Assembly (NCBI GenBank): GCA_002483345.1
Contig: DLHS01000015.1
Location: 41,117 to 105,116, forward strand
Direction of reading: 5' to 3'
Length of the DNA: 64,000 nucleotides
Source: Bacteroidetes bacterium UBA7662
GTDB taxonomy: Bacteria; Bacteroidota; Bacteroidia; UBA7662
A model generated the notes under the pieces. The model had not been told where the DNA came from. It saw nothing but the letters and a program-made list of their open reading frames with translations, and searched no databases. Positions 1,247 through 12,988 of the stretch are shown one piece after another (the stretch's first letter is position 1; each line of letters starts with the position of its first letter). The translations under genes and the position numbers were made by a program.

Positions 1247-2650
1247 ATGGGCAACTTTCAGGAAGATTTTGCGCCGGCAGTGCAGGAAAAACCGAACGGG
1301 AAGGCCTCCAGACATCAGCCGGCAGCCGGTCAGCGGTCGGTAGCCTTCTACACCCTGGGTTGTAAACTCAACTTCAGCGAAACCTCAGCCATAGGCCGCA
1401 TCTTCACGCAAAACGGCTTCGAAAAGGTTGAGTTCAACGACGGGGCAGATGTTTATGTCATTAATACCTGCTCCGTCACCGACCATGCCGACCGCAAATG
1501 CCGGAAAGTGGTACAACAGGCGCTCAAACACAATCCCGATGCCTATGTGGCCATTATCGGTTGCTATGCACAGCTCAAGCCTGCCGAAATAGCTGAAATA
1601 CCAGGGGTTGATGTCGTATTAGGTGCCGCTGAAAAATTCAACCTGCTCGAACACCTGGGTGATTTCAAAAAGCAGCCTGAAGCCCGGATCGTTTCAGGAG
1701 ATATTGAGGCCGTGAACCGCTTTGTTTCTTCTTATTCGGTTGGCGACCGAACCCGCTCATTTCTCAAAGTACAGGATGGCTGTAATTACAGTTGTACCTT
1801 TTGTACCATACCGCTGGCCAGAGGCAACAGCCGGTCAACACCCATTGCCGGAGTAGTGGCCAATGCCCGTGAAATTGCCGCACAAGGCATCCGGGAAATT
1901 GTGCTTACCGGTGTCAACATAGGTGATTATGGCCTCAATGCCGACGACCCCAAAAACAGGGAGCATGGTACCTTCCTGGAACTGATTACAGCACTGGATG
2001 AGGTAGAAGGGATCGACCGTTTCCGTATTTCCAGCATCGAACCAAATCTGCTTACCAACGAAATCATAGGTTTTGTAGCAAGTTCCAAACGTTTTGTGCC
2101 ACATTTTCACATCCCGCTGCAATCGGGTTCCAACCACATGCTCAGACTGATGCAACGCCGCTATCTGCGCGAGCTGTATGCCGACCGGGTAGCGCAGATC
2201 AAAACACGGATGCCGCATGCCTGCATAGGGGTAGACGTGATAGTGGGTTTCCCCGGCGAAAGTGATGCTGATTTCAGAGATACCTACGAATTCATTAACC
2301 AGCTCGACATCAGCTATCTGCACGTATTTACCTATTCCGAACGCGACAATACCAAAGCTATCCGCATGGAAGGCCGGGTACCTAACGGCAAACGGTCGGA
2401 GCGCAACCGCATGTTGCAGATACTCAGTGAGAAAAAACGAAGAGCCTTCTACAACGAGCACCTGGGAGCAACCCGTACTGTCCTTTTCGAACACGAACAA
2501 CATGCCGAAGAAATGTATGGTTTTACCGATAACTACATCAAGGTAAGAGCCAAATACGACCCCTTGCGGACCAACGAACTGGTGCCTGTAAAACTGGAAG
2601 AAATAGATACTGAAGGCGTGATGTTAGTGGCTGAAGCCGACTACCATTAG
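1247..2650 (+). CDS. mtaB: tRNA t6A37 methylthiotransferase MtaB (radical SAM, MiaB-like)
   Basis: N-terminal MTTase domain VAFYTLGCKLNFSETS, radical-SAM CNYSCTFCTIP, C-terminal TRAM-like region. The N-terminus may be shorter than the ORF (no internal ATG before the conserved block). Confidence 0.8.
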   Translation: MGNFQEDFAPAVQEKPNGKASRHQPAAGQRSVAFYTLGCKLNFSETSAIGRIFTQNGFEKVEFNDGADVYVINTCSVTDHADRKCRKVVQQALKHNPDAYVAIIGCYAQLKPAEIAEIPGVDVVLGAAEKFNLLEHLGDFKKQPEARIVSGDIEAVNRFVSSYSVGDRTRSFLKVQDGCNYSCTFCTIPLARGNSRSTPIAGVVANAREIAAQGIREIVLTGVNIGDYGLNADDPKNREHGTFLELITALDEVEGIDRFRISSIEPNLLTNEIIGFVASSKRFVPHFHIPLQSGSNHMLRLMQRRYLRELYADRVAQIKTRMPHACIGVDVIVGFPGESDADFRDTYEFINQLDISYLHVFTYSERDNTKAIRMEGRVPNGKRSERNRMLQILSEKKRRAFYNEHLGATRTVLFEHEQHAEEMYGFTDNYIKVRAKYDPLRTNELVPVKLEEIDTEGVMLVAEADYH

Positions 2651-4197
2651 TGCACAATCAGTTTCTGCTGAATGGTTTGCGAACCAGTTTGAAGTTGAAT
2701 CAGATATAGTCCGCCACTTAATCCTTCGGTGCCGAAGCTCAGCTGATGCTGTCCGGGCAAATAGCGCCTTCCTTCGAGTAAATATTTTACTCGTTTTCCG
2801 TTTATATCCAGCAATTCTATTTTTACATCTCCCTGCTCGGCCAGCATATAGCCCAGTTGCACTTCTCCGGAAGCCGGATTAGGATAAACCGGATACATTT
2901 TGGTTTTCATGCGCTGAATAGCCAGTTCTCCGGGCTGACTGAGCACAATGTCTTCATCACCTGCCTGATATGGCACAAAAGACACATATGTGAGATACAT
3001 TTCATCCCGCGTGCTTTCTCCCCAGCTGACGTTGATGGGCGGGTCGTTGGGATTATAGGGATTGTTGGTGGTATTGTCGAAAGTGGCTTCCGCGTAAATC
3101 CAGGTGTTTGCCGGGAGTTTTACCAGACGTGGGAAGTGGTAAAAGCCCTGCCAGTTGAAATCCCATTCCGGAATACTGATCAGGTTTACGGTGTCGTTAC
3201 CCGGACGGACGGCATATATTTTCCAGCTTTGTCCCAACAAATGCATATGTGGAAACACGCTGACCAGCGAGACATCTGCCGGAACTCTTAACCTGCCCTT
3301 GAACGACTTCACGGTGTTAGCGGGAATCACAAACGGACCATTGGTCAGATTCAGGGGTGAAATAGGTGCAATTATCTCGTGACGGGTCACCTGATTGTTG
3401 TTGTCAAAGAAAATATTGACGCTGCTGGAGTCTTTCTCGTTGACAGGATAGGGGGCATAATGCATCTGCACCAGCACATCAGCATTACGGTAAAGACGTT
3501 TGCCAATGTTGGTGGGATAATAACGTGGTGTAGTACCCGGTGCCCAGCCGTACCAGGTGTCTTCGGTAGGATTAAAACCAAAACCCGAAAAAGAGGTATA
3601 ACCATACCCTGGATCGTTCTGATCACGGACACGCCCTTGTCCGGTGGTGTCCAATGCAAGAATAGCATGGTGAACAATTTTTTTGTTGCCGGGTCTGAAC
3701 TCAATGGCTTTCACGGTTTTATCTGCAGGGATGTTCACAGGGAGTACAAACACCCGATACATATCCTGGTTGTTGCCGAGGTGTTCGTACTGCTCCGACA
3801 TGTGCAGGGTCATATCGGGCTGCCCGAGCTGCGAACCGGTCGGGAAATTGGGTAAAGGTGGCTCAAGCGTAGGGTTGCCCTGCGGCATCCCGTTGTTTAC
3901 CCAGCTGGCGATGTCATCGATTTCCTGCTGGGTAAGTCCCCGTTCGTCGAGCAGGCTGCTGTAGCTTTTGTCCGGTTGCCAGGGAGGCATGACACGTGTC
4001 TGAGTGGTAAAGCTGATCATGCTGCCATAAGCCGCTACCTCGTTGTAGTTGGTAAAGGGCATGGGCCCGATCTCACCGGCCCGGTGACAGGAAGTACATT
4101 TGTTGTAGATGATGGGTGCTATGTGCTCCGAAAAATTAAGCTGTGCCCATGAAAAAGAAGGCAGCACAAACAGACAAAAGAATAAACGTCTTTTCAT
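2647..4197 (-). CDS. secreted PSCyt1-type cytochrome c / copper type II (DBH/PHM-like) monooxygenase fusion with T9SS C-terminal sorting domain
   Basis: Signal peptide MKRRLFFCLFVLPSFSWAQ (start moved to the ATG at 4197, which gives a 4-nt overlap with the upstream gene's stop). PSCyt1 signature IAPIIYNKCTSCH...MPPW...SWVNNG. Cu-site histidines IVHHAIL, FPHMHLLGQ and distal Met (DEMYLTY). C-terminal YPNPASGEVQL...GGLYLIQLQTG T9SS CTD. Confidence 0.8.
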   Translation of the reverse strand: MKRRLFFCLFVLPSFSWAQLNFSEHIAPIIYNKCTSCHRAGEIGPMPFTNYNEVAAYGSMISFTTQTRVMPPWQPDKSYSSLLDERGLTQQEIDDIASWVNNGMPQGNPTLEPPLPNFPTGSQLGQPDMTLHMSEQYEHLGNNQDMYRVFVLPVNIPADKTVKAIEFRPGNKKIVHHAILALDTTGQGRVRDQNDPGYGYTSFSGFGFNPTEDTWYGWAPGTTPRYYPTNIGKRLYRNADVLVQMHYAPYPVNEKDSSSVNIFFDNNNQVTRHEIIAPISPLNLTNGPFVIPANTVKSFKGRLRVPADVSLVSVFPHMHLLGQSWKIYAVRPGNDTVNLISIPEWDFNWQGFYHFPRLVKLPANTWIYAEATFDNTTNNPYNPNDPPINVSWGESTRDEMYLTYVSFVPYQAGDEDIVLSQPGELAIQRMKTKMYPVYPNPASGEVQLGYMLAEQGDVKIELLDINGKRVKYLLEGRRYLPGQHQLSFGTEGLSGGLYLIQLQTGSQTIQQKLIVH

Positions 4198-4199
4198 GG

Positions 4200-4709
4200 T
4201 TAAAAATCTGAGTGCAGGAAACAACCAACTGCACGTGTTCGAATATAAGGAAAGTCCTCTTTATCAGCTACTTTTTGCAAGCGGTCTGACAATTCGGTGG
4301 CTGTGGCTTTTGGCCTTCGGCGGCCTATTTTTTCATAACTGTTGTCAATTCTTCCGGCATATAAAACCACATTTCTTTCAGATAACAAGACCACCTCCGG
4401 TGTGACTTCAATGTTGTATAAATCAACCAGCATTGCGGCTTTTTCTACTTCTACCCGTCCTTTCAGCTTGTTTTTGCTGAGATAAGCCTGTGCCGAACTG
4501 TCGGTCGACAGCTGGTTCGGAAACACAAATACCCACTCCACCGTTTCCCCGTATCTGGTTTGTAGATGCTGTAACTCCCGGCCATAAAACAAACAAATGG
4601 GGCAGTTTTCCGACCAAAACAGATAAAGGCGCGTTTGCTGTGCAGCAGCCGGTACGGCGAGACCGGCGAACAGAAGCAAAAACGAAAGAAAATACCTGCG
4701 TTTTACCAT
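4200..4709 (-). CDS. periplasmic thioredoxin-fold (TlpA/redoxin-like) protein, CPIC active site
   Basis: Signal peptide MVKRRYFLSFLLLFAGLAVPAAAQ and WSENCPIC motif; 4-nt overlap with the downstream monooxygenase gene; adjacent to the SDR stop. Confidence 0.7.
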   Translation of the reverse strand: MVKRRYFLSFLLLFAGLAVPAAAQQTRLYLFWSENCPICLFYGRELQHLQTRYGETVEWVFVFPNQLSTDSSAQAYLSKNKLKGRVEVEKAAMLVDLYNIEVTPEVVLLSERNVVLYAGRIDNSYEKIGRRRPKATATELSDRLQKVADKEDFPYIRTRAVGCFLHSDF

Positions 4710-5402
4710 CTACCAGTTTTGAGAACGGGGGTGAAGCATAATTTCATCCACTACCACATGATCAGGGGCATTTACAACATACAAAACGGCATCAGCTATG
4801 TCTTTGAGCTGTAGCCAGGCTGCTTTTTTTTCGCTGCCGGGTGTGCTGCCGTTGAAAAAACTGTCGGTTAAGCCAGGATAAATCTGGGTGAGGCGGATGC
4901 CGGCCGGCTGAAGTTCGGTCCGCAGGGCCTGCATCAACGTGCTTTGGGCGGCTTTGGAGGCACAGTACAAGCTGCCGTTCGGGAAAACACGTTTGCCGGC
5001 ATCTGAAACAATGCTGATGATGCGACCTTTTCCGGCTTCCCGCATCTTAAGGGCTATACCCTGACTGATCTGAAAACATGCGCGTACGTTCAGCATAAAC
5101 ATCTGGTCGAAGTCACTGACATTCAGCATGTCAAAAGGTTTAAAAACCCCCATGCCGGCATTGTTCACCAATACATCCGGTGTTTCGAGGGTTTCCAGCC
5201 AATGGGCAGTGGCAACGCTGTCGCTGATATCGAGCTTCGTGCAGGTGGCAGAACCTCCTTTTTGCCGAATTTCCCGGCACAAAACCTCCAGCGCCTGGCT
5301 GTCGCGGGCTACACCATGCACGGCATAGCCGTTTTCTGCCAGCGCATGGGCAATGGCAGCGCCCATACCCCTGGAAGCACCTGTTACAATTGCTTTTTTC
5401 AT
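4710..5402 (-). CDS. SDR family oxidoreductase
   Basis: TGASRGMG Rossmann motif; YxxxK (YCASK). Confidence 0.85.
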   Translation of the reverse strand: MKKAIVTGASRGMGAAIAHALAENGYAVHGVARDSQALEVLCREIRQKGGSATCTKLDISDSVATAHWLETLETPDVLVNNAGMGVFKPFDMLNVSDFDQMFMLNVRACFQISQGIALKMREAGKGRIISIVSDAGKRVFPNGSLYCASKAAQSTLMQALRTELQPAGIRLTQIYPGLTDSFFNGSTPGSEKKAAWLQLKDIADAVLYVVNAPDHVVVDEIMLHPRSQNW

Positions 5403-5881
5403 AAGTCGGGGAATTGATGGCTGTGGAGAATACTGTTTACAGGGACCAGAAAACCCTTTATACCGGCACTTTCAGCGGCTTCCACATCTCTTTCACGGTC
5501 GCCTATCATAAAACTCCTGCTCTTGTCGTAACCGAAACGGGCCAGGGCTTTTTCGATAAACAGGGAACCGGGTTTACGGCAAAGACATTTACCGAAATCG
5601 GGATGATGCCGGCAGAAATATACTTCATCAGGGTAGATGCCTTCTGCCGCCAGCCCGGCCAGCATCTTCTGGTTGATAGCGTGAAAAGTCTCCAGGCTGT
5701 AGAGTCCTTTTGAAATACCGGCCTGATTGGTGACTACAACCAGGCGATAGCCACGTTTTTGCATCTCCCGTAAAAAGGAAAAGATGCCCGGATTAAACAC
5801 AAATTCTTCAGGACTGCAGGTATAATCGCCCGGATCGTGGTTGATAACCCCATCCCGGTCGAGAAACAAGGCTTTACTCAT
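5399..5881 (-). CDS. gmhB: D-glycero-D-manno-heptose 1,7-bisphosphate phosphatase (HAD-IIIA)
   Basis: DRDGVIN HAD motif I, Zn-binding CxHx..CxC region (CRHHPDFGKCLCRKP), 160 aa. Confidence 0.85.
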   Translation of the reverse strand: MSKALFLDRDGVINHDPGDYTCSPEEFVFNPGIFSFLREMQKRGYRLVVVTNQAGISKGLYSLETFHAINQKMLAGLAAEGIYPDEVYFCRHHPDFGKCLCRKPGSLFIEKALARFGYDKSRSFMIGDRERDVEAAESAGIKGFLVPVNSILHSHQFPDL

Positions 5882-5956: not shown

Positions 5957-7486
5957 TTGCGCATGCAAAAGATCATCATACTCGACTTCGGATCGCAATA
6001 CACCCAGCTCATCGCGCGCAGGGTTCGTGAACAGCACGTTTATTGCGAAATTCACCCCTTCAACAAGATCCCGACCCTTGATGCCAGTGTGAAAGGCATT
6101 ATCCTGTCGGGCAGTCCGTATTCGACCAATGATCCGCTTAGTCCGAATCCTGACCTGAAACATATCCTGTCGGCTTATCCTGTTTTAGGGGTTTGTTACG
6201 GCGCGCAGTTGCTCACCAAACAATTTGGTGGCAGTGTGATGCCCTCCAAAACCAGGGAATATGGCAGGGCCAACATCACCTATCTGCAGCCCAATCCTTT
6301 GTTTAAGGATATCAGCCTTGGTAGTCAGGTCTGGATGTCACATAGCGATACCATCACCCACCTGCCTGAAGAGGTGGAACTGCTGGCCAGCACGGAATCA
6401 GTAACCAACGCCGCTTTCCGTTTTGCCGGTAAAAATATCTATTGTATACAGTTCCACCCGGAGGTAACCCACAGTACTGATGGTAAAAAGCTCATCTATA
6501 ATTTTCTGGTTGGCATCTGCGGTTGCAGCCAGGACTGGACCCCCGATCATTTCATCAACAGCACCATTGAAAGCCTTAAGGCAAAAATAGGCAGCGATCA
6601 GGTGGTGATGGGCCTCAGCGGCGGGGTTGATTCAACGGTAGCGGCCGTACTCATCCAGCATGCCATCGGCAAGCAGTTACACTGTATTTTCATCGACAAT
6701 GGTCTTTTGCGGAAAGATGAATTTGAAAAGGTACTGGAGATATACAAACGCCTCGACCTGAATGTTACCGGCGTACGGGCAGCCGATCAGTTTTATGCAG
6801 CGCTCGACGGACTGTCGGAGCCGGAAGCCAAACGCAAAGCCATTGGTAAGGTCTTCATCGATGTATTTGACCAGGAATCACACCGCATTCAGAACGTCAG
6901 CTGGCTGGGGCAGGGAACTATCTATCCCGATGTGATTGAGTCAGTTTCCGTAAACGGGCCTTCTCAAACCATCAAAAGCCACCACAACGTAGGAGGTTTG
7001 CCCGAAAACATGAAACTGAAGGTTGTAGAACCGCTGAATACCCTGTTTAAGGACGAAGTCCGGGAAGTAGGCAAGGCACTGGGTATTCCGATGGATATAC
7101 TCGGCAGGCATCCGTTTCCCGGCCCGGGACTGGGTATCCGCATTTTAGGTGACATAAGCCCGGACAAAGTCCGTATCTTACAGGAGGCCGATGACATCTA
7201 TATCGAAAACCTGAAAGCCTTCGGACTTTACGACAAAGTGTGGCAGGCAGGGGCCATTTTCCTTCCGATTCGTTCGGTAGGGGTAATGGGAGATGAAAGA
7301 ACTTACGAAAATGTAATTGCCTTGCGTGCCGTCGAAAGCCTCGACGGTATGACGGCGGATTGGTGTCATTTGCCCTATGAGTTTTTAGCGAAGGTCTCTA
7401 ACGAGATCATCAACAAAGTAAAAGGCATAAACAGGGTTGTGTATGACATCAGTTCGAAACCACCTGCGACGATTGAGTGGGAATAA
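5957..7486 (+). CDS. guaA: GMP synthase (glutamine-hydrolysing)
   Basis: GATase1 domain ([18 protein letters not shown]...CYGAQL), ATP-PPase SGGVDS motif, 509 aa. Confidence 0.9.
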
Positions 7487-8555
7487 GCAGTTAATCCTGT
7501 TTTGTCTGCTGTTTCTGGCATTTGCCTGCAAGGCGAAACGGGTAGAAAGCGGACAGGCCATTGTAGTTACGCCTGCCGAAAAGACCGGCAAGGCTGCGCT
7601 GGATAGTCCGCTGATTCAATCTCAGGCCAAGGTGCTGAAGATTGAATTGTGGCTTGCCCTATCAGAGCCGGAAATCAACGACGCGGAGCTGTTCAACCGG
7701 ATGCAGGCACTGGAAGGCTTCCTGTTAGGATTCGACAGCCTGCAGCGGAAAGGACTGACAGCTTCTGTTAAAGTGGTGAACAAATCGGAAATAGCAACCG
7801 GCCCTGCCGAAAATGCTGACGCCAATCTGGTTATTGAACAGGAAAAAGACGTTTACCGCATCTATCTCAAAACCGAAAACCGCTGGCTCGAAAGCCGGCC
7901 GCCCATGGAAATGCATACAGCCGCATTGTTGCGGCAAGCCAAGAAAGAAGGGGCTGCCATTTCGGTACTTACACGGGGTACAGAACTTGAAAAACGGGTG
8001 CTGGAAGCCCTTACGGCTCAACAGACAGGGGTTAAAGTACTGGAAAAAAACCGCCCTGGTCGTTCAGAGATAAAAAAGCTGTTGCTCAGGGGCAAGAAGA
8101 ATATTGTTTACCTGCCTTCTCCCGATGAAACCTTTGTGTCCTACTGTCTTAAGGAACTGGTGGAGCTTTCAGCTGAATATGACATAGTGGTATTCGGCCT
8201 GCCTAATTGGGTAGATTTCCCTACCATCGACCCCGAATTGTTAGCCAAAATTCCCATTCGGATTACCACCGCCCAGATGGTAGCCTTCAACGACCGGGAT
8301 GTGAAAGTGGTGCAGCAACTTTTCAGAGAAAAATTTAGTGCAGAACCGCAACTGGCTGCTTTTGTGGCATTTGATCACTGTCTTTTTTTAGGAGAGATTT
8401 GGTTGGAGCACCAAAAATTGAGGTTATCACATTTTAAAGAAAACAGCAGACAGCTGGCACAGGATTTTGAGTTTGTGCCTTCAGAGGAAGCTTACGTCAA
8501 TAAGGCTGTCCGGATACTCGAGTACAGCGAATACCAATTTAAACCCATACCCTGA
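7437..8555 (+). CDS. hypothetical lipoprotein (periplasmic-binding-protein-like)
   Basis: Lipoprotein-type signal peptide [13 protein letters not shown]. True start is probably downstream of the ORF start, which overlaps the guaA end. No recognisable catalytic motif. Confidence 0.5.
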
Positions 8556-9741: not shown

Positions 9742-11028
9742 TCAGATCTGGGACAGGGCCTGATTCAAATCAGCCTGCAGGTCCTGAACATGCTCAATAC
9801 CAACCGAAAACCGGATCATGGCATCTCCAATGCCATATCTTGCCCGGTTGGCAGCTGTCATGGGGGCGTGACTGGTAGTTGCAGGGTGGGCACAAAGACT
9901 TTCTGTGCCACCCAGACTGACAGCCAGTCTGATCAGTTTCAGGGCATCGAGGAAACAAAAAGCTTCTTTTTCACCACCTTTTACATCGAAGGCAATCATC
10001 GCCCCTGAATGCTCGCATTGTTTGCGGAAAATAAGGTTATTGACACTATCTGTTTCTCCGGCCAGACCAGGATAATACACTTTCTTTACTTTTGGATGCT
10101 GATTTAACCAATCTGCCAGTTGCCGGGCATTGGCAGCCGCCTTTTCCATGCGGAGAGAAAGTGTTTCCAGACTCCTTAAAAGCAAAAAGCAGGTAAAAGG
10201 AGAGGCAGTAGCGCCCAGTTGGGTCCGCCAGCCACGAATGACTGCCATCAGCTCTTTCCGGCCGATGCAGGCACCTGCCATTACATCACTGTGGCCACCT
10301 ATATATTTGGTAGCGGAATAGAGTACTACATCCGCTCCGTGTTTGATAGGTTGCTGAAAAACGGGGCCGTAATAGGTATTATCAACCGTGAGTATGACTT
10401 CTTTTTCCGGTTTGGTCAGGATTTTTTTGATTTCAGCGGCGACACTCAGGTCGATCATCAGGTTATGCGGATTGCAGGGAGTTTCTACATGAATTACCCT
10501 GATTTTATCCCTGAATCCTGCCTGATCGATCCGACTAAGCACATCATCAACTGTATCGTTTGCGTCAAAAGCCAGGCTGTTAATCTGCATGGCTTTGAGT
10601 TGGGTGTGTATAAAGGCATCACAGCCACCATAAAGCGGATTGCTGTACAAAATCACATCTCCCGGCCTTAAGAGCGCCAACCAGCAGCTACTTATGGCTG
10701 CCATACCCGATTCGAAGGCCAAAGCAGCTTCTCCACCATCCCAAACACACAACCGTTCTTCCAGTGTCTGCAGGCCGGGATGGTTCCAGCGACTGTAAGC
10801 CATGGGTTCTGCCTCACCAGGTAACAGCTCACCACGCCCGTTTTTGTAGGCAAACAGCCGTTTCATGGTAGCCGAATCCGGGAAAACAAAGGTGGAGGAT
10901 TGGTAGATGGGGACTTTAAGGGCACCCCTGTCCTGGGTATAATCCTGGCTTAAGGAACCGAGTAAGGAATCCGGGTGAAGGGAGTTATCTGAAAAGTGCA
11001 TCTGCAATTTTCGGATATTATTTCTCAA
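9742..11028 (-). CDS. Cys/Met-metabolism PLP-dependent enzyme (trans-sulfuration family; O-acetylhomoserine sulfhydrylase / gamma-lyase type)
   Basis: PIYQSSTFVF... YSATKYIGGHSD PLP-lysine motif typical of PF01053; 428 aa. Confidence 0.8.
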   Translation of the reverse strand: MRNNIRKLQMHFSDNSLHPDSLLGSLSQDYTQDRGALKVPIYQSSTFVFPDSATMKRLFAYKNGRGELLPGEAEPMAYSRWNHPGLQTLEERLCVWDGGEAALAFESGMAAISSCWLALLRPGDVILYSNPLYGGCDAFIHTQLKAMQINSLAFDANDTVDDVLSRIDQAGFRDKIRVIHVETPCNPHNLMIDLSVAAEIKKILTKPEKEVILTVDNTYYGPVFQQPIKHGADVVLYSATKYIGGHSDVMAGACIGRKELMAVIRGWRTQLGATASPFTCFLLLRSLETLSLRMEKAAANARQLADWLNQHPKVKKVYYPGLAGETDSVNNLIFRKQCEHSGAMIAFDVKGGEKEAFCFLDALKLIRLAVSLGGTESLCAHPATTSHAPMTAANRARYGIGDAMIRFSVGIEHVQDLQADLNQALSQI

Positions 11029-12988
11029 TCATCAAGCGGTTTATACCAACACCAGCTGTACTTTTTGTTACAATCTGATAAACCCCCGGAGACAAAGCAG
11101 GGAGAACTAATGTAGCAGGGTTTTCCTGATAATTCAAGCTATAGATAAGTCTACCCTGCAGGTCAAATATGCTGATACTGTTAAACGTTGTTCCTGAGGG
11201 GTCAGATAGATGAAAAGTGCCTTTGCTGGGGTTTGGGTATAGTTTAAGTTGGTGTTGTTCCAGTTTTTGTACGGAAACAGTTGAAATTGAAAGGGTGGCT
11301 GCCTCTGAAGTGTCAGAACACATGGAGGATGATATGATACAGCGGTATTTGTAATTATTCATCCACGGTGAAATGGCACTTACAAATAGCACATTATTGG
11401 TAACCCCATTATAAGGCCCAGCATTGCTTAAATTACGGAAACCGGTACCGTCATCCATCTGCCACTGATAAACGGGTGAGATAGGTGAAAGAACCTCGAA
11501 TGATACCGAACCCCCGATGAAAGCAGAGGTGTCCGATGGATTTAACTGGATCAGGTTTTCAGGGCATTCAAAAAATTTAACCAACATACCGTCATATCCT
11601 CCGATGCGATTCCCGGTAGGGAAAGCAATCTGACTACTGCTTTGGGTATAACCAGCCAAAAAGATGTTGCCTTCCACATCGCAACTTGTATTGTAGCCCC
11701 AGTCAGCTGATGCACCTCCGTAATAGGTACCCCAAATACGCTGTCCGTATGGATCAAACCGGACCAGAAAAGCATCTTCACCGCCACCACCGTAATTGGT
11801 TTGAAAGGCACCAGGCGTACTGATTCCATTAGAACTTCCTGTACCGCCTGTAACCAGCAAGTCGGCTGTGGCATTGAATGCCATTCCGTAAGACATATCT
11901 GTTCCGGTACCACCCAAATAGGTGGCCCATTCAAGTATACCGTTTCGGTTGAAGGACGCCACAAGCGCGTCGGTCATGCCGCCATATATTGTCTGATGAG
12001 CACCTTGTGTCGCTATACCAGAACTGCTGCTGGTCTGACCTGAGAGATACAGTTTGTTGGATGGAATGACATTACCGAATCCATCAGAATAGCCTACTCC
12101 CCAAATAATATCCTCTCCGGGACCGCCGAAATAAGTGCTCCATATTCTATTGCCGTTTCTGTTGAAAGCGTAAAAAATACCATCCGTACCATTGCTTTTG
12201 GATGTTTGGTGTACACCAGGGGTGGCTAATTCGATACTGCTTGACTTACCCCCCAGCCAAATCATACTGTCGGATGCTACGGAAGCATAAATATATTCTG
12301 TGCCTGATCCCCCCAGATAGGTAGCCCAAATCAGTGAGCCGTTATCAGTAAATCGGGCGAGGAATCCATCTGTACTACCATGGTAAAGGGTGTCAAAACC
12401 ATTTACCGTGGAGATTCCTGTTGAACTGGTGCTGATACCACTCATGAAAATATCTCCGTAGGCATTGGTGCTCACGGCATAGGGCTCATCAAGACCTGGC
12501 CCGCCAAAATAAGTCGACCACAACCTTGCACCGGATGGAGTATAGCAGCTTAGAAAACAATCATTGGAGCCACCACCATAAACAGGCTGATGCGCATTGC
12601 TGTCAGCCATATTATTACTGCTGTTGGTATAGCCACTGACCACAACATTATTAGAGACAGGCAATATGGCCAAAGAAGTGCCACGGTCCTCTCCGCTGCC
12701 ACCTAGATAGGTTGTCCATTGCAGGACACCATTGTAATCATATTTACTCAGGTAACTATCGCGGAAGCCACCATGATTCTGTTGCGGAGCCCCGGGTGTA
12801 CTTAACCCAACCGTGGTTTCAGTGAAACCGGTAACGTATACGTTGCCTTGCTCATCTGTAACAGAAGCCCGTATAAAATCAGTAGAAACTCCGCCGGTAT
12901 ATTTCCCCCACAATCTTACCGGGTCAGTTGCACTGGCCGAAAGAGAAAGCAGCACCAGTAAAATGAAAGGTAAAATTCTGTGTATCAT
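11018..12988 (-). CDS. SBBP beta-propeller-repeat protein with T9SS C-terminal sorting domain
   Basis: Signal peptide; many YLGGSG(E/T)D...G repeats; C-terminal LKLYPNPSKGTFHL...IFDLQGRLIYS CTD. Confidence 0.8.
   Translation of the reverse strand: MIHRILPFILLVLLSLSASATDPVRLWGKYTGGVSTDFIRASVTDEQGNVYVTGFTETTVGLSTPGAPQQNHGGFRDSYLSKYDYNGVLQWTTYLGGSGEDRGTSLAILPVSNNVVVSGYTNSSNNMADSNAHQPVYGGGSNDCFLSCYTPSGARLWSTYFGGPGLDEPYAVSTNAYGDIFMSGISTSSTGISTVNGFDTLYHGSTDGFLARFTDNGSLIWATYLGGSGTEYIYASVASDSMIWLGGKSSSIELATPGVHQTSKSNGTDGIFYAFNRNGNRIWSTYFGGPGEDIIWGVGYSDGFGNVIPSNKLYLSGQTSSSSGIATQGAHQTIYGGMTDALVASFNRNGILEWATYLGGTGTDMSYGMAFNATADLLVTGGTGSSNGISTPGAFQTNYGGGGEDAFLVRFDPYGQRIWGTYYGGASADWGYNTSCDVEGNIFLAGYTQSSSQIAFPTGNRIGGYDGMLVKFFECPENLIQLNPSDTSAFIGGSVSFEVLSPISPVYQWQMDDGTGFRNLSNAGPYNGVTNNVLFVSAISPWMNNYKYRCIISSSMCSDTSEAATLSISTVSVQKLEQHQLKLYPNPSKGTFHLSDPSGTTFNSISIFDLQGRLIYSLNYQENPATLVLPALSPGVYQIVTKSTAGVGINRLMIEK

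What the first reader, a model, noticed from the sequence alone, without database searches (positions are those of the whole stretch)
2647..5881. T9SS-secreted cytochrome c - copper monooxygenase fusion in an operon with a TlpA-like redoxin, an SDR and gmhB
One polypeptide combines a PSCyt1-type mono-haem cytochrome c domain (CTSCH ... MPPW ... SWVNNG), a DBH/PHM-like type II copper monooxygenase (HH, H, HMH and distal Met ligand sets all present) and a T9SS C-terminal sorting domain. This implies export to the cell surface or outer membrane. Its start overlaps by 4 nt the stop of a periplasmic CPIC thioredoxin-fold protein. That protein is preceded with no gap by an SDR, and the SDR's start overlaps gmhB by 4 nt. 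The result is a tightly coupled four-gene unit on the minus strand. The redoxin is a plausible dedicated reductant for apo-cytochrome cysteines or for the copper site. The built-in cytochrome could replace ascorbate as electron donor for the monooxygenase.
Basis: partly seen in the sequence, partly recalled or inferred. Interest (0 to 1): 0.6.

Follow-up and report, generated by a model that had tools for sequence, protein, structure and literature searches.

The report
Exported haem-copper monooxygenase with partner redoxin
This gene encodes an uncharacterised bacterial relative of the animal copper enzymes that make amidated peptide hormones and noradrenaline. It has a built-in cytochrome c and a cell-surface export tag, and across several bacterial phyla it is paired with, or fused to, one particular small thiol protein, which suggests a new way of supplying or assembling this kind of enzyme.

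Summary

The family is large: about 2,500 clusters at E<=1e-30. No named or characterised member was found in the databases or papers searched.

The functional unit is two genes, not four. The redoxin lies next to the enzyme in 51 of 77 informative loci. It is fused to it, at either end, in many Planctomycetota and in two Armatimonadota loci. The SDR and the gmhB-like gene stay nearby only in close, fully syntenic relatives.

The redoxin is not a classical CxxC TlpA. Its invariant cysteines are C36 and the C-terminal C163, as in the uncharacterised solved proteins 2CVB and 2YWI.

No protein carries both a redoxin and a CTD. This fits a partner that acts in the periplasm, in maturation or priming. 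A role as catalytic electron donor is not excluded.

Two corrections: the redoxin/enzyme junction is a 2-nt gap, not a 4-nt overlap, and PSCyt1 is not supported. The substrate is unknown.

The parts
2647..4197 (-). Gene for the 516-aa cytochrome c / two-copper monooxygenase / T9SS-CTD protein (stop codon 2647-2649; preferred start ATG at 4197)
   Evidence: ORF; start context. The identical protein is called on 4 public contigs. More than 5,000 homologues were found.
4141..4197 (-). Sec signal peptide MKRRLFFCLFVLPSFSWAQ (residues 1-19)
   Evidence: Read from the sequence. An N-terminal basic-hydrophobic-AxA-like pattern is conserved in alignment A1. This is by inspection; no predictor was run.
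3853..4140 (-). Mono-haem cytochrome c domain (residues 20-115): CTSCH at 4084-4098, axial Met in MPPW at 3979-3990
   Evidence: C34, C37, H38, M70, P71 and P72 are invariant in 321 homologues. The isolated domain scores 21.7 bits on PF00034 against a cutoff of 21.3. Cytochrome_CBB3 matches weakly in 30 of 32 members. The region is helical in the model.
3403..3825 (-). N-terminal beta-sandwich of the copper core with the CuH site (H176, H177 at 3667-3672; H246 at 3460-3462)
2953..3390 (-). C-terminal beta-sandwich of the copper core with the CuM site (H317-M-H319 at 3241-3249; M400 at 2998-3000)
   Evidence: PF03712 scores 23.3 bits against a cutoff of 23 and is hit in 29 of 32 members. hhalign places H317/H319 on PHM H242/H244 and M400 on PHM M314. 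The residues are invariant.
2650..2889 (-). T9SS type-A C-terminal sorting domain (residues 437-516)
4200..4709 (-). Partner redoxin, 169 aa, signal peptide, thioredoxin fold; CPIC at 4593-4604, C-terminal GC at 4221-4226
   Evidence: It is adjacent to or fused with the enzyme in 55 of 77 loci. C36 and C163 are invariant. The family profile matches 2CVB at E 1.7e-25. Foldseek also returns ResA, StoA and DsbE.
4710..5402 (-). Classical SDR oxidoreductase. It is probably co-transcribed here, but it is not part of the conserved module.
   Evidence: adh_short scores 153.5 bits. It is absent as a co-oriented neighbour in 80 distant loci and present only in syntenic close relatives.
5399..5881 (-). 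GmhB-like HAD-IIIA phosphatase. It is probably co-transcribed here, but it is not part of the conserved module.
   Evidence: TIGR01656 scores 139.3 and TIGR01662 scores 103, both above cutoff. The GmhB equivalog models fall below cutoff. It is not conserved next to the enzyme.

Best explanation
The conserved unit is a two-gene module: a periplasmic thioredoxin-fold protein and, just downstream, a haem-copper monooxygenase.

Shown. The enzyme has a Sec signal, one c-type haem domain (CXXCH His plus Met70), a PHM/DBH-type non-coupled two-copper core (CuH = H176/H177/H246; CuM = H317/H319/M400) and a T9SS type-A CTD. The redoxin is genetically tied to it across phyla, and in many lineages fused to it.

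Inferred for the enzyme. It is exported by Sec. It receives haem and two coppers in the periplasm. In Bacteroidota it is then passed, folded, through the T9SS to the cell surface or the medium. In turnover the haem c takes single electrons from an outside donor and relays them to CuH and then CuM. CuM activates O2 to hydroxylate a substrate that is not peptidyl-glycine and remains unknown. The haem plays the part that ascorbate plays for PHM and DBH.

Inferred, less certain, for the redoxin. It works through its invariant C36/C163 pair. In this organism it acts on the enzyme in the periplasm before export, as a dedicated maturation or priming factor. The most likely action is keeping the only two cysteines of the enzyme, those of CXXCH, reduced for haem attachment. 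Delivering the first reducing equivalents is an alternative.

The SDR and gmhB-like genes are lineage-specific neighbours, not functional partners.
For: Architecture and ligands:
- Pfam and NCBIfam domain hits.
- The AF2 model has pLDDT 84.6.
- The top 31 Foldseek hits are all PHM or DBH, with E down to 5e-12.
- hhalign places all six copper ligands on PHM H107/H108/H172/H242/H244/M314. The PHM sequence used was checked against PDB 1SDW.
- All haem and copper residues are invariant in 321 homologues.

Module:
- A redoxin lies directly upstream in 46 of 77 informative loci and directly downstream in 5. In L072, L077, L078 and L080 it is in one ORF with the enzyme.
- About 110 of the 120 best hits to the L078 ORF are 600-735-aa proteins carrying AhpC-TSA/Redoxin Pfam domains.
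- Among 150 representatives, redoxin fusions occur at either end: 11 N-terminal, 5 C-terminal and 1 duplicated module.
- No other neighbour is conserved; the next gene cluster is shared by only 7 loci.

Periplasmic, pre-export action:
- None of 81 CTD-bearing representatives carries a redoxin, and none of 17 redoxin fusions carries a CTD.
- The redoxin has a signal peptide and no CTD.
- The mature enzyme has no cysteines other than those of CXXCH.
- The redoxin fold matches the ResA/StoA/DsbE (CcmG) cytochrome-maturation redoxins.
- TlpA gives a precedent for a periplasmic redoxin that prepares cuproenzyme subunits (PMC6696091).
Against: - No biochemical data exist for any member. Haem binding, copper content, O2 chemistry and secretion are all inferred.
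- Pfam support for the copper domains is marginal: the C domain scores 23.3 against 23, and the N domain 15.4 against 30.
- A maturation factor permanently fused to its client, as in many Planctomycetota proteins, is unusual. Fusion fits a steady-state catalytic partner better.
- The second Cys of CxxC, which ResA and CcmG both need, is mostly absent from the family.
- General cytochrome c maturation systems already include a redoxin, so the need for a dedicated one is unexplained.
- 22 of 77 loci show no redoxin within 6 kb.
- The donor that would reduce a surface-exposed haem is unknown.
Confidence: 0.55

Rival explanations
1. The redoxin is the catalytic electron donor. Its C36/C163 dithiol, recycled by a DsbD/CcdA/ScsB-type membrane reductase, supplies the two electrons each turnover needs. 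The haem c splits this two-electron donor into two one-electron steps to CuH and CuM. The module would then be a thiol-driven copper monooxygenase, or simply an oxidase.
For: - Covalent fusions at either terminus are widespread. One protein even duplicates the whole redoxin-cyt-CuMO unit (P0281).
- Exactly two electrons are needed per PHM-type turnover (established PHM chemistry).
- Electron flow from thiol to haem c to copper is thermodynamically downhill (general knowledge).
- The fold resembles the N-terminal TlpA-like domain of PilB, which is fused to the MsrA/B domains (2FY6, 2H30, 2JZR). From memory, that domain feeds electrons to MsrA/B.
- Envelope peroxiredoxin-like proteins are known to be reduced by DsbD-family transporters (PMC3322552 abstract).
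Against: - In Bacteroidota the enzyme carries a T9SS CTD and the redoxin does not. No protein combines the two. An exported enzyme would therefore be cut off from its donor.
- No flavin or other known two-to-one electron converter is present.
- No DsbD/CcdA gene is conserved nearby.
Confidence: 0.27
2. The redoxin is a peroxiredoxin-like guard or a copper handler. Either C36 acts as a peroxidatic Cys and C163 as a resolving Cys, removing H2O2 made by uncoupled O2 reduction at CuM. Or the two thiolates bind Cu(I) and load the CuH and CuM sites.
For: - The family hits AhpC-TSA (PF00578) in the fused proteins, which NCBI names 'alkyl hydroperoxide reductase'.
- It is homologous to 2YWI, whose C-terminal Cys is described as a resolving Cys (PMC3091736).
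- A conserved S/T sits 3 residues before C36 in 99 of 116 fused members, and R120 is conserved.
- Thioredoxin-fold copper chaperones such as Sco exist (PMC6696091).
Against: - The Prx PxxxTxxC motif is not complete.
- The invariant P104 in the TPE motif aligns with the ResA/StoA-type redoxins. From general knowledge, it is the cis-Pro typical of thiol-disulfide oxidoreductases rather than of Prx.
- There is no conserved His or Met to complete a Sco-like copper site.
- The closest solved relatives (2CVB, 2YWI, 3U5R) share the same Cys pair, and nothing found here links them to copper.
Confidence: 0.12
3. The four genes form one functional pathway. The SDR and the GmhB-like phosphatase would make or modify a sugar-type substrate or cofactor for the monooxygenase.
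For: - The window shows 4-nt, 0-nt and 2-nt junctions, with no terminator-like site between the genes on the minus strand.
- The same gene order occurs in relatives whose enzyme is 60-62% identical.
Against: - None of 80 distant loci has a co-oriented SDR or GmhB-like neighbour.
- In the close relatives the whole region is syntenic, including guaA, the rsmB-like gene, the radical-SAM gene and the exonuclease. The junctions there open to 80-216 bp, as expected from shared ancestry rather than selection for linkage.
- Both proteins lack signal peptides (by inspection of the sequences), so they are cytoplasmic.
Confidence: 0.04

Closest known systems
Peptidylglycine alpha-hydroxylating monooxygenase (PHM, EC 1.14.17.3), dopamine beta-hydroxylase and tyramine beta-monooxygenase: the non-coupled binuclear 'copper type II ascorbate-dependent monooxygenases' (Pfam PF01082 + PF03712)
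   Same: - All six ligands line up with similar spacing (HH...H...HxH...M), and the QxHY motif around the third CuH histidine is kept.
   Different: - Only about 16-19% identity, with no sequence-level PDB hit.
- None of the PHM disulfides; the mature core has no cysteines.
- The PHM peptide-carboxylate binders are replaced: R240 by F315 and N316 by L402.
- An N-terminal c-type haem domain is present.
- The protein is bacterial, periplasmic or T9SS-exported.
- A dedicated redoxin partner is present.
- Nothing indicates an ascorbate supply.
Cytochrome-domain partners of copper monooxygenases in eukaryotes: the DOMON domain of DBH, CYBDOM proteins, and the cellobiose dehydrogenase cytochrome domain that reduces LPMOs (from memory, not tested here)
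   Same: A redox or haem module is attached to, or paired with, a secreted mononuclear-site copper oxygenase. It can feed single electrons without a soluble vitamin cofactor.
   Different: - Those modules bind haem b, or none at all, and have an unrelated beta-sandwich fold.
- Here the module is a covalent-haem class-I-like cytochrome c, made by the bacterial periplasmic maturation machinery.
Solved but uncharacterised thioredoxin-like proteins 2CVB/2YWO (Thermus thermophilus), 2YWI (Geobacillus kaustophilus) and 3U5R (Sinorhizobium meliloti SMc02350)
   Same: - The redoxin family profile matches them at E 1.7e-25, 2.3e-21 and 3.9e-17 over the whole domain.
- They share a CP-x-x first Cys, the TPE/TPD loop, Y-x-G-R/Q-x-D/N-D and the C-terminal I-G-C motif.
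- They are the best Foldseek hits.
- The C-terminal Cys of 2YWI is described as a resolving Cys.
   Different: - Nothing found here links those proteins to a cytochrome c / copper enzyme.
- The window protein has a signal peptide.
- Unlike them, the window protein also keeps a second Cys (CPIC).
Periplasmic TlpA/ResA/StoA/CcmG (DsbE) thiol-disulfide reductases of cytochrome c and cuproenzyme maturation
   Same: - Thioredoxin fold with the same loop motifs: StoA at E 4.6e-12 and ResA at E 1.3e-10; Foldseek hits.
- An envelope location.
- Genetic linkage to a c-type cytochrome / copper protein.
   Different: - The CxxC motif that defines their mechanism is not conserved in this family: the second Cys is present in 39 of 61 stand-alone and 5 of 116 fused members.
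- A C-terminal extension carrying an invariant Cys is added.
- The redoxin is often covalently fused to its presumed client.
T9SS type-A CTD cargo proteins of Bacteroidota (e.g. mirolase, NucA)
   Same: A C-terminal beta-sandwich sorting domain scores above both curated cutoffs and matches solved CTDs.
   Different: The cargo here needs covalent haem and copper inserted before export. No paper describing haem-copper oxygenase cargo was found in the library searched.

Membership tests
PHM/DBH-type copper monooxygenase (PF01082 + PF03712) | Two-domain beta-sandwich catalytic fold | tested here: met
   [not shown]
PHM/DBH-type copper monooxygenase (PF01082 + PF03712) | CuH site with three His and CuM site with two His plus Met | tested here: met
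   hhalign puts H176/H177/H246 on PHM H107/H108/H172 and H317/H319/M400 on PHM H242/H244/M314. All are invariant in 321 homologues.
PHM/DBH-type copper monooxygenase (PF01082 + PF03712) | Pfam gathering scores for both domains | tested here: inconclusive
   PF03712 scores 23.3 bits against a cutoff of 23 and is hit in 29 of 32 members. PF01082 scores 15.4 against 30 and is hit in 4 of 32 members.
PHM/DBH-type copper monooxygenase (PF01082 + PF03712) | PHM substrate-binding residues for peptidyl-glycine (R240, N316, Y318) | tested here: not met
   In the hhalign alignment R240 corresponds to F315 and N316 to L402. Only the Tyr position is kept, as Y404. The protein is therefore not filed as a PHM orthologue.
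PHM/DBH-type copper monooxygenase (PF01082 + PF03712) | Ascorbate-dependent, O2-dependent hydroxylation | not testable with these tools
   This needs enzyme assays.
Class I c-type cytochrome | CXXCH haem-attachment motif and a distal Met ligand, both conserved | tested here: met
   C34, C37, H38 and M70 are invariant.
Class I c-type cytochrome | Profile match to a cytochrome c family | tested here: inconclusive
   The isolated domain scores 21.7 bits on PF00034 against 21.3, and 22.5 on PF13442 against 27.
PSCyt1 (PF07635, planctomycete cytochrome c) | Profile match to PF07635 | tested here: not met
   No hit in 32 members at E<=0.1, nor in three isolated domains at E<=10.
T9SS type-A cargo | C-terminal Por_Secre_tail / TIGR04183 domain at the extreme C-terminus | tested here: met
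   45.6 bits against 27, and 40.3 bits against 23, over residues 437-515 of 516. Structural matches to solved CTDs.
T9SS type-A cargo | Actual T9SS-dependent export and CTD cleavage | not testable with these tools
   The only supporting context is a second CTD protein in the window, at 11018..12988.
TlpA/ResA/CcmG thiol-disulfide reductases | Thioredoxin fold with family loop motifs | tested here: met
   Foldseek and profile hits to StoA, ResA, DsbE and PilB-N.
TlpA/ResA/CcmG thiol-disulfide reductases | Conserved CxxC active site | tested here: not met
   This protein has it (CPIC). Across the family the second Cys is found in only 39 of 61 stand-alone and 5 of 116 fused members.
2CVB/2YWI/3U5R thioredoxin-like family | Full-length profile similarity, with a CP-type first Cys and a C-terminal GC | tested here: met
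   E 1.7e-25, 2.3e-21 and 3.9e-17, with the motifs aligned. C36 is found in 177 of 177 and C163 in 175 of 177 members.
Conserved operon / functional gene module | Neighbourhood kept across distant taxa | tested here: met
   Met for the redoxin + enzyme pair only: 51 adjacent plus 4 fused of 77 loci, spanning Bacteroidota, Planctomycetota, Verrucomicrobiota, Armatimonadota and Latescibacterota.
Conserved operon / functional gene module | SDR and gmhB-like genes kept with the enzyme across distant taxa | tested here: not met
   No co-oriented case in 80 loci. They recur only in fully syntenic close relatives.
GmhB (D-glycero-D-manno-heptose-1,7-bisphosphate 7-phosphatase) | NCBIfam equivalog or subfamily cutoff | tested here: not met
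   NF006506 scores 148.9 against 178 and TIGR00213 scores 127.5 against 149.6. The HAD-IIIA domain models are passed.

The most novel reading that the evidence does not exclude
The module is a new way of powering a PHM-type copper monooxygenase. A dedicated two-cysteine redoxin, recycled from the cytoplasm through the membrane, hands two electrons to a built-in haem c. The haem meters them one at a time to CuH and CuM. In Bacteroidota the primed or matured enzyme is then displayed on the cell surface by the T9SS, where it would oxidise an extracellular substrate such as a polymer or a small aromatic or amine compound. That would be a bacterial, ascorbate-free counterpart of the cytochrome-LPMO and DOMON-DBH arrangements.
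Probability: 0.3. Interest if true: 0.8.

Novelty: new variant of a known kind. Interest (0 to 1): 0.62.

Why it matters
PHM and DBH are the textbook non-coupled binuclear copper monooxygenases, and to my knowledge they have been studied almost only in animals, where ascorbate feeds them. This work defines a very large bacterial family: about 13,000 clusters at 50% identity match at E<=1e-3 and about 2,500 at E<=1e-30. The family keeps the full copper chemistry but replaces the soluble reductant with a covalently attached cytochrome c and adds a family-specific thiol protein. In Bacteroidota the whole cofactor-loaded enzyme is routed through the T9SS.

If confirmed, three things follow:
- A tractable bacterial model for long-range electron transfer into CuH and CuM.
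- A new class of secreted oxidative enzymes in abundant polymer-degrading phyla. Current annotation hides it under 'T9SS type A sorting domain-containing protein' or 'alkyl hydroperoxide reductase'.
- A first functional context for the orphan 2CVB/2YWI/3U5R thioredoxin-like family.

Tried and rejected
- Sequence search of the enzyme against PDB found nothing as a single sequence. As a profile it hit only CTDs. The PHM link therefore rests on Pfam, hhalign and structure.
- The PSCyt1 assignment was rejected.
- The four-gene functional operon was rejected on conservation.
- A classical CxxC TlpA mechanism was rejected as the family rule.
- The word-index homologue search with the redoxin alone returned only 9 close relatives. 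The family was recovered instead from neighbouring ORFs in the loci and from fused proteins.
- A search for other conserved neighbours, such as DsbD/CcdA, copper chaperones or transporters, found none. After the enzyme and its own antisense ORFs, the next cluster is shared by 7 loci.
- No paralogue of the enzyme or redoxin, and no second CXXCH ORF, exists in the 64-kb window.
- Seven literature searches covered PHM-like bacterial enzymes, Pfam accessions, T9SS cytochrome or copper cargo, and ascorbate-dependent monooxygenases in Bacteroidetes/Planctomycetes. None found a paper on this family.
- The AFDB Foldseek library was unavailable.
- A tri-domain natural fusion was not modelled to see how the redoxin docks. 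The tools return no coordinates or PAE, so the result could not have been read.
- The promoter and terminator scan was uninformative, with counts at the shuffle expectation.

Full report
**What is in the sequence**

The minus strand of window 2647..5881 carries four co-directional ORFs:
- a HAD-IIIA phosphatase at 5399..5881;
- a classical SDR at 4710..5402;
- a 169-aa thioredoxin-fold protein at 4200..4709;
- a long ORF ending at 2647.

The junctions were read directly:
- The phosphatase stop and the SDR start share ATGA.
- The SDR stop TAG is followed at once by the redoxin ATG.
- The redoxin stop TAA is followed by CC and then ATG at 4197.

The ATG at 4197 gives MKRRLFFCLFVLPSFSWAQ, a normal signal peptide. 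The same 516-aa product is called on four public contigs. The alternative TTG at 4224 would overlap the redoxin gene by 25 nt.

**The enzyme**

Pfam and NCBIfam give a solid T9SS type-A sorting domain: PF18962 at 45.6 bits against 27, and TIGR04183 at 40.3 against 23. They give a marginal Cu2_monoox_C hit (23.3 against 23). The hits to Cu2_monooxygen N and to the cytochrome c families are below threshold.

Four further lines settle the identification.
1. In a 32-sequence alignment of 47-82% identical homologues, these residues are invariant: C34, C37, H38, M70-P-P-W73, H176, H177, H246, H317, H319 and M400. They remain invariant in 321 homologues that include distant Planctomycetota fusions.
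2. An AlphaFold model (pLDDT 84.6) finds only PHM and DBH among its top 31 Foldseek hits in PDB (E down to 5e-12).
3. A profile-sequence alignment to the rat PHM core was made. I recalled that sequence from memory and then verified it against PDB 1SDW. The alignment places H176/H177 on H107/H108, H246 on H172, H317/H319 on H242/H244 and M400 on M314. The QxHY motif is kept (probability 70%, E 4e-5).
4. The isolated N-terminal domain just passes generic PF00034 (21.7 against 21.3) and weakly matches Cytochrome_CBB3. PF07635 (PSCyt1) is never hit.

The haem-domain label should therefore be 'class-I-like mono-haem cytochrome c', not PSCyt1.

The PHM residues that hold the peptidyl-glycine carboxylate are not kept: R240 corresponds to F315 and N316 to L402. 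None of the PHM disulfides exists. This is a PHM-type catalyst but not a PHM orthologue.

**How common it is**

The word-index search returned more than 5,000 hits. Most have no informative name: 'T9SS type A sorting domain-containing protein', or occasionally 'ascorbate-dependent monooxygenase' or 'mono/diheme cytochrome c family protein'.

An exhaustive HMMER scan of 1.84 billion 50%-identity representatives, using the cytochrome-plus-copper core, found 13,206 proteins at E<=1e-3 and 2,482 at E<=1e-30.

A genome scan found at least 596 relatives:
- In Bacteroidota (Hymenobacter, Saprospiraceae, Flavobacteriales, Crocinitomicaceae, Chitinophagales) the match runs to the CTD.
- In Planctomycetota, Verrucomicrobiota, Armatimonadota, Abditibacteria and Latescibacterota the match ends at about residue 410-427, so there is no CTD.

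**The real module**

In the 80 fetched loci I looked for homologues of the window's neighbours. Of 77 loci with enough flanking sequence:
- 46 have a homologue of the redoxin directly upstream on the same strand;
- 5 have it directly downstream;
- 4 carry redoxin and enzyme as one ORF (L072, L077, L078, L080; sequences);
- 22 show none within 6 kb.

None of the 80 loci has a co-oriented SDR or GmhB-like neighbour. No other gene family is shared by more than 7 loci.

Searching with the L078 fusion shows that the tri-domain form is common. About 110 of the 120 best hits are 600-735-aa proteins with AhpC-TSA/Redoxin Pfam hits, named 'alkyl hydroperoxide reductase' or 'redoxin domain-containing protein'.

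Among the 150 representatives listed, the architectures are:

| Architecture | Count |
|---|---|
| cyt-CuMO-CTD | 80 |
| cyt-CuMO | 51 |
| redoxin-cyt-CuMO | 11 |
| cyt-CuMO-redoxin | 5 |
| duplicated cyt-CuMO module (P0163) | 1 |
| duplicated redoxin-cyt-CuMO module (P0281) | 1 |
| CuMO-CTD without a detected cytochrome domain | 1 |

None combines a redoxin with a CTD.

In close relatives of the window organism (enzyme 60-62% identical), the gmhB-like, SDR, redoxin and enzyme genes keep the same order. So does everything around them: guaA, an rsmB-like gene, the radical-SAM gene and the exonuclease. The junctions there open to 80-216 bp. That is inherited synteny, not evidence of a four-gene function. 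The genes are probably co-transcribed in this organism, but the conserved functional unit is redoxin plus enzyme.

**The redoxin**

This copy has CPIC, but the family does not depend on CxxC:
- C36 is found in 177 of 177 members.
- The second Cys is found in 39 of 61 stand-alone and only 5 of 116 fused members; elsewhere it is Ser, Ala or Thr.
- A Cys in a C-terminal 'GC' motif (C163) is found in 175 of 177.
- P104, Y117 and G119 are invariant. E105 (152 of 177) and R120 (163 of 177) are highly conserved.

The model (pLDDT 82) is closest to 2CVB/2YWO, 3U5R and 2YWI. After those come ResA, StoA, DsbE, the PilB N-terminal domain and tryparedoxin.

A profile of 23 diverse family members matches 2CVB, 2YWI and 3U5R at E 1.7e-25, 2.3e-21 and 3.9e-17. 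The aligned motifs are CP-x-V, TPE/TPD, YxG(R/Q)xDD and IGCxIKW. One paper treats the C-terminal Cys of 2YWI as a resolving cysteine (PMC3091736). 2CVB has a separately deposited 'reduced' form, 2YWO.

The working redox pair is therefore most likely C36-C163. The family is a distinct, functionally orphan branch of the TlpA/Prx clan.

**How it most likely works**

Shown: the domain set, the ligand sets, the fold, and the genetic coupling with the redoxin.

Inferred:
- Sec export is followed by haem attachment and copper loading in the periplasm, and then by T9SS export of the folded holo-enzyme in Bacteroidota.
- Electrons enter at the haem c and pass to CuH and CuM.
- O2 is activated at CuM to hydroxylate a substrate that is unknown and is not peptidyl-glycine.

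I weigh two models for the redoxin.

*Maturation or priming in the periplasm.* Points in favour:
- CTD-bearing enzymes never carry the redoxin, and the redoxin has no CTD, so the two meet only before export.
- The mature enzyme's only cysteines are those of CXXCH.
- The fold is that of the cytochrome-maturation redoxins.

*Steady-state electron donor.* Points in favour:
- Permanent fusions at either end are frequent.
- The two electrons of a dithiol match the two needed per turnover.

Neither model is excluded. I put about 0.55 on the overall picture with a periplasmic maturation or priming role, about 0.27 on the catalytic-donor variant, and about 0.12 on a peroxide-guard or copper-handling role. 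A TlpA-like action on copper-ligand cysteines is ruled out, because the copper sites have none.

**Comparison and novelty**

Seven full-text searches found no paper on this family. Database names are generic or misleading.

The catalytic core belongs to a known kind, PHM/DBH. Three things are new:
- a covalently attached c-type haem domain as the likely electron entry;
- a dedicated atypical two-cysteine redoxin;
- T9SS routing of a haem-and-copper cargo.

I rate it a new variant of a known kind, with interest 0.62.

**Limits**
- Everything functional is inferred.
- Pfam support for the copper domains is marginal without the structural and ligand evidence.
- Domain-domain geometry could not be inspected.
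- Taxon labels of several MAG contigs look unreliable.
- The substrate is unknown.

Noticed in passing
window 2647-2650: The enzyme gene (minus strand, stop at 2647-2649) and the convergent radical-SAM methylthiotransferase-like gene (1247..2650, plus strand; UPF0004 + Radical_SAM) overlap by 4 nt at their 3' ends. That leaves no room for a terminator between them.
   Followed up: partly
window 11018-12988 (minus): A second T9SS type-A CTD protein lies here: 656 aa with SBBP-like repeats and a Por_Secre_tail domain. The organism therefore has other T9SS cargo close by.
   Followed up: partly
P0163 (1064 aa), P0281 (1251 aa), P0157/P0160/P0172/P0174 (about 1070-1090 aa): These giant relatives contain two complete modules: cyt-CuMO twice in P0163, and redoxin-cyt-CuMO twice in P0281. 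Several others carry N-terminal EF-hand calcium-binding domains.
   Followed up: partly
P0334, P0351, P0358, P0367, P0394: In these relatives the redoxin domain is fused to the C-terminus of the enzyme rather than the N-terminus. The fusion arose in both orientations.
   Followed up: partly
L044:6001-9427, L064:5-2802, L080:6001-9162: These loci have a tandem arrangement of enzyme, redoxin and enzyme, so one redoxin gene sits between two paralogous enzyme genes. In L080 the second copy is fused to the redoxin.
   Followed up: partly
L028, L035, L047, L051, L081: These contigs are labelled Hyphomicrobiales, Halioglobus or Klebsiella MAGs. L028, L035, L047 and L051 carry full-length Bacteroidota-type enzymes whose match runs into the CTD. 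L081 carries a CTD-less enzyme of the type otherwise found in the CTD-less phyla (Planctomycetota, Verrucomicrobiota, Armatimonadota). The taxon labels are probably binning errors.
   Followed up: no
L001:13729-14250 (same contig as the window, about 1.5 kb beyond its left edge): A cytochrome P460 family gene lies close to this locus on the parent contig. P460 proteins are another unusual periplasmic haem c family.
   Followed up: no
window 7437-8555 (plus): A 372-aa ORF (called as 370 aa in L001) with no Pfam hit lies between guaA and the rsmB-like gene. It is conserved in position in the close relatives (L082:530-1648, L085:518-1504).
   Followed up: no
L008:5731-5952: Only the C-terminal half of a redoxin homologue is detectable upstream of the enzyme here (tblastn, query residues 96-168). 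No intact ORF was found, so this may be a decayed or frameshifted partner gene.
   Followed up: no
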